A DNA stretch of 64,000 nt from Candidatus Heimdallarchaeum endolithica (GTDB taxonomy: Archaea; Asgardarchaeota; Heimdallarchaeia; Heimdallarchaeales; Heimdallarchaeaceae), in assembly GCA_021513715.1 (NCBI GenBank), contig CP084167.1, positions 1,120,001-1,184,000 of the forward strand, read 5' to 3'. Both the position numbers and the translations under genes were made by a program. Of the stretch, positions 3,496 to 27,245 are shown piece after piece. The notes under the pieces are model-generated. The model was given only the letters and a program-made list of their open reading frames with translations. It was not told the DNA's origin and did not search any database. Position 1 is the stretch's first letter. The number at the start of each line of letters is the position of its first letter.

Positions 3496-5066
3496 ACTAT
3501 TCAGATTTCAAACTTGAATTTAAGTTGGGGAAATGTATAGAGTGTGATGTTCACGGAAAAAGTTTGAGTGAAGCTAAAAGGATGGTAATACAAACTCTTA
3601 AAGAATGTCAACAAAAGGACATAAGAATCATAGATATCATTCATGAGTTGAAATTTTACGTAATTTCTTCAGGACTCTCCCCAACCAACCAACAAACTTA
3701 GCGAAAGTTGTGAAGACTGGCTTAAGAGAACATGAAAGACACAGTCTCAATTAAGTTCTCAAAGGGGTTCATCTCCTTATCCCGGGAACTCATAACTCCC
3801 AAAGGGAAAACCGGGTGTCGTGGGAATGAAACCTACGTCTTTAAGCATATAGCTCAAGACACTAGATAAATGAGAATTAAATATATAAAGATAGCTGAAA
3901 AGTTGTTACACTCCCCAATATTTTGTATTTTTTATTTAAGCAAATGTGTTTCAGGTTGTTATTGGTCTAATAACTCCACAAACTAAAAATTTAGTTTTTT
4001 ACGTAAAAAAGTATCTCATGGTTACAAGAGGGGAAGAGTTCTAAAAGACTATTTCAAGTCGGATTCTTTTCTTAAGGAAACAAGAAAATTGGGATGTGAA
4101 CTAATATACGAAAATGATGATATTTTCTTAAATCCAGGTAGAACTAGTTATTTAATTCGATTCATAAATGGGAATGAAGAAAAGAAATCGATTCTATCAA
4201 AAGAATGGATAGGTTTTATTGCCCATAAAGAATCCGAACAAAAGACAGAAAAAGATTTTCAACAAGGCTTCTATTATATTAAAGAAGAGACACAATTTTG
4301 TGATGAAGAAGAATCAATATTGATGAGTGATAAAGAAGATGATGAACTAGAAGAAGAATACACTCTTTTCACAGATGAAAATGAACAAAAGAGAGAAGAC
4401 CAAAATAATTATGAATTCCTCAGCATCACAGTGCCTGAACGAGAGTACACGATTGATAATATTTCTCCTAAAGATAATATTGCTGATTTAATTCACGGAT
4501 TCAGATTGCGAATTCCAGAATACTCTAGTTATGATTTATTACTAGGGTTAACTTATCAGGGTTCTGGAGATCTAACACTTCGAATTTGTAAATATAATTT
4601 CTATAATCAAATGATTCTACCTAAAGATAATATTGATTTTATTAAATCTGATAAAAAATTGCATTATATACATGATTTTGCAGAGGGGTTAGAAAAAATA
4701 ATTGACAATTTTGCAACTCTTAATAAGATTAAACAAAATAAAGAAAGAAAAGTCTTAAATTCAAGTTTAAGAACAGGAACAAGTTGTTATCTTGTGTACT
4801 CCCTCTGCTATTATAAAGATAATAGACATATTGGAATAGCTTTTTATCCAATCGACAATAAAACAATTTTTCGAATCTTTAGGGTAGATCTTCCTTATTC
4901 AGCTCAATATGAAGTAAATATAAGAACAGATCATTATGGAGGGCACAAATGTATAGACATCTCTATACAAGGATTAAACTACAAAAAATTTATCATAAGT
5001 TTTAAAGAACTGTTTATGAAAATTCTTGAATATTTGGATGAAACAGATACATTATTTATACTTTGA
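3492..5066 (+). pseudogene. Smr-domain (MutS2 C-terminal-like) nuclease protein split by a 373-bp insertion
   Basis: Removing 3645-4019 restores in frame CDVHGKSLSEAK...IIDIIH/GYKRGRVLK...NPGRT, the DLHG / IHG / NxG pattern of Smr domains, running into ORF 4089..5066; start uncertain. Confidence 0.8.
3645..4017 (-). mobile_element. 373-bp non-autonomous mini-element, copy 1
   Basis: About 8 substitutions versus the reverse complement of 9110-9482; TCATG at both junctions; imperfect terminal IR GAG-N6-TTTTACGTAA; interrupts the Smr gene. Confidence 0.92.
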
Positions 5067-8963: not shown

Positions 8964-9109
8964 GGAATTATATGTTTTTCATTATTTTGCAAGTTGATAA
9001 CCCTTCTTGTAAGGAGGTTCTAACTAGAAGAAGACCTTAAGGCAAGATAGAGTAAATTTATTGTTGATTTCATATTTTTCTTCTAATTTCTTGAAGAATT
9101 AATATCCAT

Positions 9110-9482
9110 AAGATACTTTTTTACGTAAAAAACTAAATTTTTAGTTTGTGGAGTTATTAGACCAATAACAACCTGAAACACATTTGCTTAAATAAAAAAT
9201 ACAAAATATTGGGGAGTGTAACAACTTTTCAGCTATCTTTATATATTTAATTCTCATTTGTCTAGTGTCTTGAGCTATATGCTTAAAGACGTAGGTTTCA
9301 TTCCTACGACACCCGGTTTTCCCTTTGGGAGTTATGAGTTCCCGGGATAAGGAGATGAACCCCTTGGAGAACTTAGTTAAGACTGTGTCTTTCATGTTCT
9401 CTTAAGTCAGTCTTCACAACTTTCGCTAAGTTTGTTGGTTGGTTGGGTAGAGTCCTGAAGAAATTACGTAAAATTTCAACTC
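9110..9482 (+). mobile_element. 373-bp non-autonomous mini-element, copy 2
   Basis: Same length as copy 1, inverted; junctions CCAT|AAGATAC and CAACTC|ATG. Confidence 0.92.
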
Positions 9483-9484
9483 AT
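9265..9484 (+). ncRNA. Predicted omega-RNA-like structured RNA in the mini-element (also about 3643-3862, minus strand)
   Basis: TATA-like TTTATATA 9238-9245 upstream; stems CGTAGG/CCTACG, CCCGG/CCGGG, AGACTG/CAGTCT; ATGAGTT 9334-9340 complementary to terminal AACTCAT 9478-9484. Confidence 0.6.
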
Positions 9485-9755
9485 GTTTCTGTTGGACATA
9501 AAAATGACAATTGATAGTGTTGAGTATCAAGGAAAGACAAGACCAAAACAACAACAATATGAACTTAAGCATCCAAAAGAATACAAGTTATATTGGGCAA
9601 CTTTTCCTGTAACAGACAGAAAACAAATTGAAGGCAAAGAGAAAATACAAATCTATGTTGATATAAAATTCTTCAGTAAGAAATTCAAGAGATATAAGAA
9701 ATATACAGATTTACCAGAAGAGGATTTAAAGAGGTTCATATATTCTATTCAATAA
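9483..9755 (+). CDS. Hypothetical protein (possibly C-terminal remnant of a decayed gene)
   Basis: 90-aa ORF starting at the element junction. Confidence 0.35.
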   Translation: MFLLDIKMTIDSVEYQGKTRPKQQQYELKHPKEYKLYWATFPVTDRKQIEGKEKIQIYVDIKFFSKKFKRYKKYTDLPEEDLKRFIYSIQ

Positions 9756-18096: not shown

Positions 18097-18724
18097 ATCG
18101 TGTGTAGAACATTATTTTTTTGAAAGGTTTTTTGATTTTCTTTTTAGAGGTAGTACTTCCGCAATAAGTTGACCGATTTCTATAGGTTAAAATTATAGGA
18201 GTTCATACTATCATTGTCGTGTTCTCAATTCATACTTTTTGAGATAATTCGGAAGTACTATTAGAGGGGAGAAAAAAATAAAAACAACTTTAAATTTTTG
18301 AAACAGATGAACAATGAGAATTATCTAATCGAACAGTATAAGATGGAAGAAAAAGAGCACAAAAAAATAGCTGACTTACTTTCTGAATCTTTCTTATCAG
18401 ACCCTGCAGCTATTGATGAAGGAGCTTCTATTCTCTTTTCTGACAAAACGATAAAGTTAATTTTTGGTTCTCTAACTGTCAAGAAAAACTATTTTGTTAG
18501 AGCTGTTTACAAGAAAACAAATGAAATTGTAGGATTTTTGGGATTAATTCCTAGAGACTTCAGAATAAAGAAACAAACGTACAATTTCGCTATTCCTGCC
18601 TGGTTAGCTGTTCACCATCAACATAGAAGAAAGGGTTTAGCAAAAATGATGGGAGAAAAGATGTTAGAAATCGCACAAAAAGAATCTTTTGATGGAGGTT
18701 TTGCTTTATTTGAACCAGAGCAAC

Positions 18725-18967
18725 ATGATTTACTTTTTGCGAAGTTTGTCGAACTTAGTCTTTCAAGAAAAAAACAAAGAAAGAGAATTGTCAGTTTCTT
18801 GAGAACTTAATCCTAACATACAATGAAAGAAGAAGGATTAAGGCAGACGTCATACACGAATCGTGGGAATCATAAAGAAGAAAAGAGTTGTAAGCTCTTT
18901 CTTCACTCCACGAGAGACAAAAAAGAAACAATTATCCCTAAAATAGAGAAATTATTTTTCTTTTTGT
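18725..18967 (-). ncRNA. Predicted omega-RNA scaffold of tnpB
   Basis: About 240 nt between the tnpB stop and the element end, with stems TCGTGG/CCACGA, CTTAATCCT/AGGATTAAG, TCAAGAAA/TTTCTTGA; ATGATT complementary to terminal AATCAT. Confidence 0.7.
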
Positions 18968-20567
18968 CTACTGGGACTGCAACCAATGGCTGAGTCCTCG
19001 GCAAACAGTGTAGTGAGTAAGACTGAATTTTTGACCAGTAAAATAATCAGTAATAGTTGTAGTACGGGGACGAAAAAGATGACTAAGGAATTTACGAGCA
19101 ATATTTCTTGCCCCTGTCAAATCGGAGTGGAAGGTGTAATTGCAAATGGGACAGTGTACTAACCCTCTAACGGGACGAGAAACTTCTTTTCCACAACGGG
19201 AACAATGAGAAGATGTTCCTCTTTCGTCTAAAGTGAGAATGCGGTGAGATTCAAAACCTCTTAATATCAATGCTCGACGGAGAAGACCAAGAACTAAAGA
19301 AAAATTCCACTGGTGAAGTTTTCTACGAAAATAACGAGTACTTTTTTCTTTTCCTTTTTCTTTATCTTTTCTAACATTTTTGGGGTAACCTACGACGACG
19401 AAAAGGTCATACACTTTTGCATAACTCTCTATTGTCCGCACAACGTCGTTTATAAATTGGTGAATATAGGACCGTTTAACGTTTCTATATCTCCGACGGA
19501 GAAGACCGAGAAAACGATAAATTTGGTGTTTTTTACCCGACTGGTCATTTAAAGCCGCTTTCCTCTGAAGACGGGAAAGTTTGAGTTTATATCTATGATT
19601 GATTCTATTCCACTGTTTGGTATGCCAGAATTTTATTTCTTTAATAGTTAATTTCTTTTTGGGAGTTAGTAACACTCCTGCTGCAGGAATGTTTATCCCT
19701 AGATCTATTCCCAGCACAGCTGGAGGAAGAGAAGAAGAACTTTCTTTTTCAGGAGGATAGAAAGAAGGAGGAGGAAGAACTTTCAATTGGAAATACACCC
19801 ACCATTCACGTGTAGAACGTTTATATCTCAGTTCTAAACTTTTTATTTGTCCTTTCTTCAATTCTTTTTGATGGAAAGTGCTCATCTCTAAAGGTAACCA
19901 CAATCGTTGATGATACCTTGTCTTTCTTTTCCACGTGTCTAATGAGTCTCTTATTCCTACCCACCAACGAGAAATGGAGTTGTTTTTTTCTTTTGGTAAA
20001 TTAGTAAGAATAAATCTTTTTTTATTGATTAGTTGTCTTCGGGGTCTCTTTTTTGGAGGACGAGTGGCTTCAGGTCTATATCCTTGCTCGTACAGTTGTA
20101 CTGCTATATCTCTGCACTCTTGAAACTCATCGTGAGAACAATGGCGAAACATCTTTTTAAGGTCATGAGGAACAGTCTCTCTTCGCTCTTCTACTTTTTT
20201 TATCCTTGATGTTGTTAATGTTAGTTCATCTAACTTCCCTTTATGTACTCTTATTTCTCCGTTCTTTGTTTTCATACACAGTCTTCTTCTGTTGTGATGT
20301 ATAATTTTTACATACTTTTCTATTATCCTCGTGTCTCTCCCTGTTATTCTCCTTAATCTTTCCTTTTTTCTCCTCGTCAAAACTTCATTCTTTATTCTAA
20401 CTTTCAAAGTTTTGACTATCTTCTCCATCTTTTTTCCTCTTATTTTCCTTTTTCTTCTTCTTCTCTTCATTTATTTCTACTATTTTTTCTTATAAAAAGT
20501 CTCTTTTTTTTCTTTTTTTTAGTTTCTCATCCATACTCTCTATCCTAATGTTCGCAAAAAGTGAAAC
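18727..20567 (-). mobile_element. TnpB-only transposable element with inverted ends
   Basis: Perfect IR ACTTTTTGCGAA 18732-18743 / TTCGCAAAAAGT 20551-20562; AACATG at both junctions; host gene restored on removal; no transposase gene inside. Confidence 0.92.
18968..20470 (-). CDS. tnpB: TnpB/Cas12f-like RNA-guided nuclease with rearranged RuvC-II
   Basis: GIDLG (RuvC-I), VVVGYP, LDERGTS, CSRC/CPIC zinc finger, HSDLTGARNI (RuvC-III). Confidence 0.92.
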   Translation of the reverse strand: MKRRRRKRKIRGKKMEKIVKTLKVRIKNEVLTRRKKERLRRITGRDTRIIEKYVKIIHHNRRRLCMKTKNGEIRVHKGKLDELTLTTSRIKKVEERRETVPHDLKKMFRHCSHDEFQECRDIAVQLYEQGYRPEATRPPKKRPRRQLINKKRFILTNLPKEKNNSISRWWVGIRDSLDTWKRKTRYHQRLWLPLEMSTFHQKELKKGQIKSLELRYKRSTREWWVYFQLKVLPPPSFYPPEKESSSSLPPAVLGIDLGINIPAAGVLLTPKKKLTIKEIKFWHTKQWNRINHRYKLKLSRLQRKAALNDQSGKKHQIYRFLGLLRRRYRNVKRSYIHQFINDVVRTIESYAKVYDLFVVVGYPKNVRKDKEKGKEKSTRYFRRKLHQWNFSLVLGLLRRALILRGFESHRILTLDERGTSSHCSRCGKEVSRPVRGLVHCPICNYTFHSDLTGARNIARKFLSHLFRPRTTTITDYFTGQKFSLTHYTVCRGLSHWLQSQ

Positions 20568-21343
20568 ATGGAATTGATACAGCCTTATCAGTTGCTAAAG
20601 AAAAAAAACTTCAAGTTTTTCGACCATTTGAAACTAAAAAGTTTATCATTAGAGTTTTTGATTCTGAAAAGGTTGCCAGCGTTGTTAAACTTAAATTTTA
20701 CGAGAAATTATTTTTCAAATTAAAAGAAAAAAATAAGAAAATAAAGAATAGTGCTAATCTCAGACAATTTAGAAAAGAAGATATTCCAATTTTATTTGAT
20801 TTACTAGTAGATCTCACTAAAGATTATGAAGTATCAATAGAACCTAATTTTGAAGATTTTAAATGGGTATTAGAACAACCAGCAACTAATTGTATAATTT
20901 ATGAAAAAAGTGAAGAAATAAAGGGATTCATGCTTGCTTGGGAGTTCAAACTTGCAGATTTCGGAAATGCAATTCCTTTTGGTTGGATAGATATTATTCA
21001 CATAAAAAATCTATCTACATCAGAAGCTACAGATTTGAGTCTGTATCTATCTGAAACGAGTAATGCAAAAGGATGGTTGGGATTACAATCCCCATACATT
21101 CCTTATTATAAGTCTAAACCTTTACAAAAAGCTAACTTTGTTTTTTTCCCCAAAAAACTAAGTTTTGACATTATTTTACTTAGCAAAGTGAAAATACCTG
21201 GTAAGTTTAAAGCTGCTTACTTTGATTGGAGATGAACACTCATTTGAAAGAGAATAGAAGGAACTAATGAAAAAAATAGAGGTTAAAGATTTACATTTTT
21301 TCCAAAGGTTTAAAAATAATAAATTGTAAGGGATAATAGAAAA

Positions 21344-26507: not shown

Positions 26508-27245
26508 TTAGTTTTCTTGTTCTTGTTCCTTTTCTTGTTCTTGTTCCTTTTCTTGTTCTTGTTCCTTTTCTTGTTCTTGTTCCTTTTCTTTGTCTTTCAT
26601 CCATTCAGGAGTTTCATTTAATCTTGCTTTCCAATCAAATTCTTGAAATCCAGTCATTCTTTTTTCCATTTTAGAGGCTACTGCAGATTCTATTTGATGA
26701 AATCCGTCATAGAATTCATCTATTTTTTTTACTCTTTCTTTTTGTTTTATTCTTTCTTGTGCTCTTTTTTCAAAATCAAATAAATAAGCGATGTAGCTAA
26801 AAAGTCCCATCTTTTTATCTCTAAGGTGTCTTTTTATTAAATAAAGGATGGAGGCTAACATTAAAGCTCCAGTAACAAAAAATATCCCAATTAAGATTTG
26901 TGAAGACCATTGAGTTCCGAAAAAGGTTAGATATATACTAACAGGTAAATATGTTGCAGCCATAACAATAATAGGTATTGCAACAAAAATATACAAGAGT
27001 TCATTAATTGCACTAGCTATGGCATATCCTCTTCCTGTTAAAAACCGTATCATAACACCTGAAAAGAATGTTCCTGCGAGTATAGCTATAATAACAAATC
27101 CAATTATTTTAAAAAGAGGATTTCCTGAAACAAAACCTAATATTACTGATGCTGTTAAAACTACACCTAAAATAATATTTTGAACTATATTCTTACGGTC
27201 GATGAATTTTTTTCTTTTTGGCACATAATGACCCATTTTCCTCAA
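26508..27245 (-). CDS. Membrane protein with repetitive EKEQEQ tail
   Basis: 4 TM segments followed by charged tail. Confidence 0.75.
   Translation of the reverse strand: MRKMGHYVPKRKKFIDRKNIVQNIILGVVLTASVILGFVSGNPLFKIIGFVIIAILAGTFFSGVMIRFLTGRGYAIASAINELLYIFVAIPIIVMAATYLPVSIYLTFFGTQWSSQILIGIFFVTGALMLASILYLIKRHLRDKKMGLFSYIAYLFDFEKRAQERIKQKERVKKIDEFYDGFHQIESAVASKMEKRMTGFQEFDWKARLNETPEWMKDKEKEQEQEKEQEQEKEQEQEKEQEQEN
26514..26590. repeat. 18-bp tandem repeat x4 (TTCTTGTTCTTGTTCCTT) coding KEQEQE
   Basis: Read directly. Confidence 0.9.

What the first reader, a model, noticed from the sequence alone, without database searches (positions are those of the whole stretch)
18721..20575. TnpB element with true inverted ends and a CCATG target shared with the mini-elements
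Seen: perfect 12-bp IRs placed symmetrically 4 nt inside CATG words at both junctions, no transposase inside, and exact in-frame restoration of the host gene. All three insertions in this window map to CCATG in the same relative orientation, and the ends resemble each other (GATTTACTTTTT vs GAGATACTTTTT). Established: classical IS200/IS605 tnpB elements have subterminal hairpins and no TIRs. Inference: mobilisation by a different enzyme (DDE transposase or serine/tyrosine recombinase using a CAT/ATG core). The exact cut point is ambiguous between target duplication and a TCAT right end.
Basis: partly seen in the sequence, partly recalled or inferred. Interest (0 to 1): 0.78.

Follow-up and report, generated by a model that had tools for sequence, protein, structure and literature searches.

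The report
Transposase-less TnpB elements with AT core
This is a real jumping element of an Asgard archaeon that carries an RNA-guided DNA cutter but no enzyme to move itself; its ends differ from the usual elements of this type, and the enzyme that moves it, and about 40 relatives in the genome, is still unidentified.

Summary
Confirmed: a 1,843-bp insertion splits a GNAT gene; 12-bp inverted repeats lie 4 nt inside CATG; only tnpB is carried; the empty allele exists in a sister species and an independent metagenome. The genome is probably Ca. Heimdallarchaeum endolithica. It holds 42 complete elements with this end design (three TnpB families, minis). Corrections: CCATG is a subfamily preference, and CATG is not duplicated as a unit. 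Only AT is shared at all junctions, with C before it 42/42 and G after it 33/42. The ends have tandem motifs, no hairpins, and co-vary between families, resembling IS607 with AT instead of GG. No autonomous partner was found. The closed sister genome has no Y1 TnpA, IS607 TnpA, aCas1 or tyrosine recombinase; ours has only a disrupted Y1 TnpA. Best reading: scarless 2-bp-core recombination in trans, with TnpB re-cutting empty sites (about 0.5). Candidates are two conserved host serine recombinases of a family that mostly lacks XerA (unproven). The TnpB has a shifted catalytic glutamate and is sister to aCas1-linked Asgard TnpBs. Other first readers noted the same elements elsewhere in this genome. 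New variant of a known kind.

The parts
18725..20567 (-). Non-autonomous TnpB element, 1,843 bp (left end at 20567, right end at 18725; the exact cut within the shared AT/CAT is ambiguous)
   Evidence: 12 full-length copies (80-93% nt identity to this copy) in the genome
20568..20571 (-). Target motif / predicted TAM CCAT (C at -1 invariant; C at -2 typical of this subfamily)
   Evidence: TAM role inferred
20551..20562 (-). Left-end subterminal IR arm (second 10-bp unit deleted in this copy)
18732..18753 (-). Right-end IR arm (18732-43) plus second tandem unit (18744-53)
18725..18727 (-). Right-end terminal CAT containing the AT core
20490..20498 (-). TATA-like box about 20 nt before the tnpB start, seen upstream of tnpB in most related families; promoter role inferred
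18968..20470 (-). tnpB, 500 aa; RuvC D256, shifted E416 (G361 at the canonical Glu), D450, C4 zinc finger
   Evidence: residues invariant in 112 homologues
18725..18967 (-). Putative reRNA (omega RNA) scaffold; guide predicted from the flank below 18725
   Evidence: z = -2.65 against shuffles; 8 of 41 consensus pairs compensatory in 24 related copies; no Rfam match; expression not shown
18307..18724 (+). 5' part of the interrupted host GNAT acetyltransferase gene
20568..21235 (+). 3' part of the host GNAT gene
3642..4020 (-). Mini-element 1 (about 380 bp, family M1), same AT-core ends
9107..9485 (+). Mini-element 2; its two flanks are 2.15 kb apart in H. aukensis

Best explanation
A non-autonomous, multi-copy TnpB transposon of a Heimdallarchaeia-wide 'AT-core' end system. 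It is moved in trans by a double-strand recombinase with IS607/TnpX-like (serine-type) 2-bp-core chemistry. Steps: (1) the enzyme binds the tandem T-rich motifs inverted at both ends (inferred); (2) it exchanges strands at the AT, leaving a scarless empty site and a circle whose junction is a dyad centred on AT (empty site shown; circle inferred); (3) the circle integrates at C-AT-(G) sites (target shown by 42 junctions); (4) TnpB, guided by an RNA running out of the right end, cuts empty sites next to its TAM, and repair from a filled copy restores the element (inferred from known TnpB biology). TAM-dependent retention would explain why the -2 base follows the TnpB subfamily. The only serine recombinases in both closed genomes are two conserved chromosomal genes; they are my leading named candidates (about 0.2 on their own).
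For: Only AT is common to all junctions: right ends finish in TCAT or TGAT. The +1 base is not duplicated at two empty sites checked in H. aukensis. Palindromic target bias (G at +1, 33/42, p~1e-22) fits double-strand dyad recognition. No end hairpins. Family-matched LE/RE similarity: T1 20.5 vs 10.6-16.4; g2 17.5 vs <=12.6. IS607 has subterminal imperfect IRs, short repeated motifs and a 2-bp core (PMC6188088); Tn4451 recombines at 2-bp identities with low specificity (PMC5704250). -2 base: T1 C 7/7, T1b R 14/16, F445/M2 T 9/10 in G000 and T in all 12 relatives read. Catalytic residues invariant. The two recombinases keep the Y-x-R-x-S-T motif, occur in 28/30 family genomes and 0/16 others, and some paralogues sit in defence-type islands. 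A 200-bp inversion in H. aukensis has one breakpoint at this site.
Against: No element with these ends carries a recombinase. No circle junction was seen. Similar ends occur in family f3 genomes lacking these recombinases (not verified by empty sites; genomes 68-82% complete). Genome G002 has two unlike end motifs side by side, hard for one DNA-binding protein. IS607 elements in relatives have different ends. The conserved recombinases look like housekeeping genes. The inversion also sits on 7-bp microhomology.
Confidence: 0.48

Rival explanations
1. Fold-back (panhandle) mechanism: in single-stranded DNA the left and right ends pair with each other, extended by the self-complementary CATG words. 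A structure-recognising enzyme not yet identified (HUH-like or host) cuts at AT.
For: End sequences co-vary by family with no family-specific enzyme in sight; two unlike motifs coexist in G002; G at +1 would pair with C at -1.
Against: The pairing spans 0.35-1.9 kb and is imperfect next to the core. Many motifs are palindromic, which suggests dimeric protein sites. No candidate enzyme was found.
Confidence: 0.2
2. DDE cut-and-paste transposase with a 2-bp AT duplication (ISL2/IS630-like), lost or extrachromosomal, acting in trans.
For: True inverted ends; dyad target; TIR-flanked DDE-TnpB elements and solo derivatives are known (PMC10691335).
Against: The base next to AT is G, A or C, and the next 4-6 left-end bases vary, unlike DDE termini. 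The four multi-copy DDE families in the genome have their own ends and longer duplications.
Confidence: 0.15
3. Derived from aCas1-TnpB transposons and moved by an Asgard Cas1 integrase.
For: The TnpB clade is sister to TnpBs lying head-to-head with 1,500-1,900-aa Cas1-like ORFs. The right-end ACTCAT of related families resembles the published GTTCACTCA motif.
Against: An aCas1 profile finds nothing in G000, G001 or 24 family genomes. The same ends carry unrelated TnpB lineages.
Confidence: 0.08
4. Ordinary IS1341-type IS200/IS605 derivative (NCAT target, TCAT/TGAT right end) moved by Y1 TnpA; the IRs are incidental.
For: Strict 5' target, loose 3' side, conserved right-end tetranucleotide, subfamily-specific -2 base; G000 has one Y1 gene.
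Against: No hairpins, whereas true IS605/IS1341 elements in the same genomes have them. No Y1 in closed H. aukensis or 19 g4 genomes. The G000 tnpA is itself split by an 85%-diverged mini, while 99%-identical copies exist. Strong 3' G bias.
Confidence: 0.06

Closest known systems
IS607 family (IS607, IS1535, ISC1926, CboIStron)
   Same: TnpB plus right-end RNA; no true duplication but a 2-bp core; subterminal imperfect IR and short repeated motifs; a 4-nt target that includes the core and doubles as TAM (PMC6188088; bioRxiv 2023.11.20.567912).
   Different: Core AT in palindromic CATG, not GG; IRs symmetric about the core; no TnpA_S in the element or in either closed genome; local IS607s have other ends and an unrelated TnpB.
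IS1341 group of IS200/IS605
   Same: TnpB-only, multi-copy, TAM at the left junction, conserved right-end tetranucleotide.
   Different: No subterminal hairpins, inverted ends, 3' target bias, no cognate Y1 TnpA.
TIR-flanked DDE-TnpB elements and Fanzor2*/SfAV Fanzor elements
   Same: Inverted ends around a TnpB-type nuclease; non-autonomous copies with unknown partners; shifted RuvC-II glutamate.
   Different: No invariant termini or 3-4-bp duplication; DLG rather than DPG; no DDE partner.
aCas1-TnpB loci of Asgard archaea (Cas1H-Asgard; PMC10691335)
   Same: Sister TnpB clade (31-36% identity); similar right-end motif.
   Different: No aCas1 in this family; RNA region about 245 nt after the stop rather than at the ORF end; small multi-copy elements.
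Tn4451/TnpX serine-recombinase transposons
   Same: Low-specificity integration through 2-bp identity (PMC5704250).
   Different: Those encode their own large recombinase and have no TnpB.

Membership tests
IS200/IS605 (IS1341 group) | Subterminal DNA hairpins at both ends | tested here: not met
   z +1.07 and +0.17; the control IS605 ends fold into clear hairpins
IS200/IS605 (IS1341 group) | No terminal inverted repeats | tested here: not met
   IRs conserved and co-varying
IS200/IS605 (IS1341 group) | Cognate Y1 TnpA in cis or in trans | tested here: not met
   none in closed G001; the single G000 copy has other ends and is interrupted
IS200/IS605 (IS1341 group) | TnpB with right-end RNA and 5' target motif | tested here: met
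   (RNA predicted only)
IS607 | wHTH-serine recombinase TnpA_S, cognate to the ends | tested here: not met
   absent from G000 and G001
IS607 | GG core | tested here: not met
   core is AT
IS607 | 2-bp core, no longer duplication; subterminal IR and short repeated motifs | tested here: met
   against PMC6188088
IS607 | Double-stranded circular intermediate | not testable with these tools
   only assembled contigs were available; no circle joint listed
DDE TIR transposon with TnpB (IS630/ISL2/IS1031-type) | Cognate DDE transposase sharing these ends | tested here: not met
DDE TIR transposon with TnpB (IS630/ISL2/IS1031-type) | Fixed-length duplication and invariant terminal bases | tested here: inconclusive
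   a 2-bp AT duplication cannot be excluded; terminal bases vary
aCas1-TnpB | Adjacent giant aCas1 gene | tested here: not met
aCas1-TnpB | TnpB of the same clade | tested here: inconclusive
   sister clade, SH-aLRT 100 on a quick tree
IS110/IS1111 | DEDD transposase; site-specific targets | tested here: not met
   PF02371 absent from G000; targets share only CAT(G)

The most novel reading that the evidence does not exclude
An undescribed transposition system: in Heimdallarchaeaceae, which mostly lack XerA, several unrelated TnpB lineages and their minis hijack domesticated chromosomal serine recombinases (or another unrecognised host enzyme) by presenting AT-centred inverted sites, so no autonomous element is needed.
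Probability: 0.25. Interest if true: 0.88.

Novelty: new variant of a known kind. Interest (0 to 1): 0.64.

Why it matters
Closed genomes with dozens of recently moved copies (up to 99.7% identical) and no intact known TnpB-associated transposase point to an unrecognised mobiliser, in an Asgard lineage studied for the origin of eukaryotes. Fanzors sit in inverted-repeat transposons, and how TnpB moved into such elements is open. Here the same end system carries at least three deep TnpB lineages, one with a Fanzor-like active-site shift. The system gives direct tests: predicted TAMs (CCAT, RCAT, TCAT) in nucleases that are 82-92% identical, and named candidate recombinases. A scarless integrase with a 3-4-bp target could also be a tool.

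Tried and rejected
Autonomous partner: not found by an end-motif scan of G000, pattern searches in relatives (70; the phylum-wide pattern was mostly noise), neighbourhoods of three TnpB clades, viral contigs (80, 129-131: chance hits in unrelated phages), or extra recombinase paralogues. The weak Cas1 hit in G000 is a HerA-like ATPase. IS607s of relatives have other ends. Plasmid relatives of the 413-aa clade that I inspected mostly have hairpin ends. A piggyBac-like 4-nt overhang model was considered and rejected: the +1 base is not target-derived at two sites, and F445 keeps GAT. A Tn916-like coupling sequence was not supported (left-end bases mirror the right end). No RNA holder was listed. 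Makarova 2020 on aCas1 was not readable. The tree is the quick version. No structure prediction was run. One empty-site search (L367) found no orthologue. M2 coordinates are off by one base and were corrected by hand.

Full report
Source. The window lies in a closed 3,326,783-bp genome. Its closest relative holding this TnpB is Ca. Heimdallarchaeum aukensis. The size matches Ca. H. endolithica, 3.32 Mbp (PMC8813620); that name is an inference. That paper counts 11 transposase/integrase families; a search of its main text found no mention of TnpB or IS605.

Observation. The junction words, 12-bp IRs, single tnpB gene and in-frame host restoration are all as described. The empty allele is real: a contig of run X3 skips 1,843 bp and keeps one CATG, while X1 and X2 hold filled junctions. 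H. aukensis also lacks the element. This copy is slightly degenerate: sister copies have two tandem 10-11-bp units at each end, giving about 27 bp of imperfect IR.

Family. G000 holds 42 complete elements with this design: 12 close copies (T1, T1b), two 504-aa, three 445-450-aa TnpB elements, and 25 minis of 340-380 bp. Several pairs are over 99% identical, so movement is recent. Related genera carry the same design with changed, non-palindromic motifs that match between left and right ends, so the inversion is under selection. The ends occur on at least three deep TnpB lineages, interleaved with hairpin-ended ones (quick tree).

Junction anatomy. In tnpB orientation the left flank ends C-AT in 42/42 cases, and the right flank begins with G in 33/42 (12% background). 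Right ends finish in TCAT in some families and TGAT in others. At two sites where the two +1 bases differ, H. aukensis shows the right-flank base in the empty site. So only AT is shared, as a recombination core or a 2-bp duplication. Some mismatches come from rearrangement between copies. The -2 base follows the subfamily: C in T1 (7/7), a purine in T1b (14/16), T in F445 and its minis. The simplest cause is TAM-dependent retention by each TnpB (inference; TnpB promotes retention after scarless excision, bioRxiv 2023.11.20.567912).

Nuclease. TnpB has Gly at the canonical RuvC-II position and a shifted Glu416; D256, E416 and D450 are invariant in 112 homologues. This rearrangement is known and is thought to be active (PMC10691335). 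The 245 nt after the stop fold better than shuffles and show compensatory pairs (related copies, so modest evidence). The clade is sister to TnpBs paired with giant Cas1-like proteins in Thorarchaeia and other Heimdallarchaeia.

Mobiliser. Y1 TnpA: one gene in G000, in an ordinary hairpin IS605 and interrupted by an old mini; none in H. aukensis or genus g4. IS607 TnpA: absent from both closed genomes, and its ends differ elsewhere. aCas1 is not found in either closed genome and IS110 is not found in G000. Tyrosine recombinase: none found in H. aukensis. The resident DDE elements have their own ends. What remains are two chromosomal serine recombinases with intact catalytic motifs, found in 28/30 family genomes and none of 16 others. 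In this family tyrosine recombinases were found in only 9/24 genomes, mostly as weak hits, against strong XerA-like hits in all 16 others. Their involvement is a hypothesis: similar-looking ends occur in f3 genomes without them, and no autonomous element was found.

Verdict. The element works most like IS607 (2-bp core, subterminal inverted motifs, TnpB retention) but fails membership on the GG core and the cognate TnpA. It also fails IS200/IS605 membership on hairpins and IRs. TIR-flanked prokaryotic TnpB elements and in-trans mobilisation are already known, so this is a new variant of a known kind. Its unidentified enzyme could make it more than that. Serine-type 2-bp exchange 0.48; fold-back mechanism 0.2; DDE 0.15; aCas1 0.08; Y1 0.06.

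Noticed in passing
L128 (G001:C1:1012283-1012482): The H. aukensis orthologue of the host gene lacks the element but has a 200-bp inversion. One breakpoint is this CAT site, the other a second AT within 7-bp inverted microhomology. The X3 allele is not inverted.
   Followed up: partly
L002:1213-1932, L003:1201-1950 (G000 ~317 kb, ~406 kb): Heimdallarchaeaceae mostly lack XerA-like tyrosine recombinases (none found in closed H. aukensis) but keep two small serine recombinases not found in sister families; possibly a replacement for chromosome dimer resolution.
   Followed up: partly
L396-L400, L407: Extra paralogues of these recombinases sit at integrated islands, some with restriction-modification or Abi-like genes.
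   Followed up: partly
L001:1500-2270: The genome's only Y1 tnpA is interrupted at its third codon by an 85%-diverged mini-element.
   Followed up: yes
window 9107-9485 vs L178: Mini 2 stands where H. aukensis has 2.15 kb including a 447-aa ORF; probably an adjacent deletion.
   Followed up: partly
L025-L031, L046-L066: A 36-41% identical TnpB clade in genus g4 sits at the stop codon of a HerA-like ATPase gene; some copies elsewhere carry up to about 200 bp of that gene's 3' end.
   Followed up: no
L082, L083, L085, L089, L059, L060: Giant aCas1 proteins keep conserved Glu, His and Asp residues plus a PD-(D/E)xK-like region; the intergenic region has a short hairpin repeat.
   Followed up: partly
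L161-L177: IS607 elements of related genera appear to end in GT-containing termini rather than GG and carry a ~640-aa TnpB-like protein.
   Followed up: no
L239, L252: A fourth TnpB lineage with the same end motif inserts in TATA instead of CATG.
   Followed up: partly
window 18138-18261: A ~125-bp MITE of the IS4/ISH3-like D381 family lies just upstream of the host gene and is polymorphic in runs X1, X3 and X4.
   Followed up: no
G000:C1:499100-499140: Lone left-end-like palindrome with no partner, intergenic.
   Followed up: no
window 26512-26601: 18-bp tandem repeat inside an ORF.
   Followed up: no
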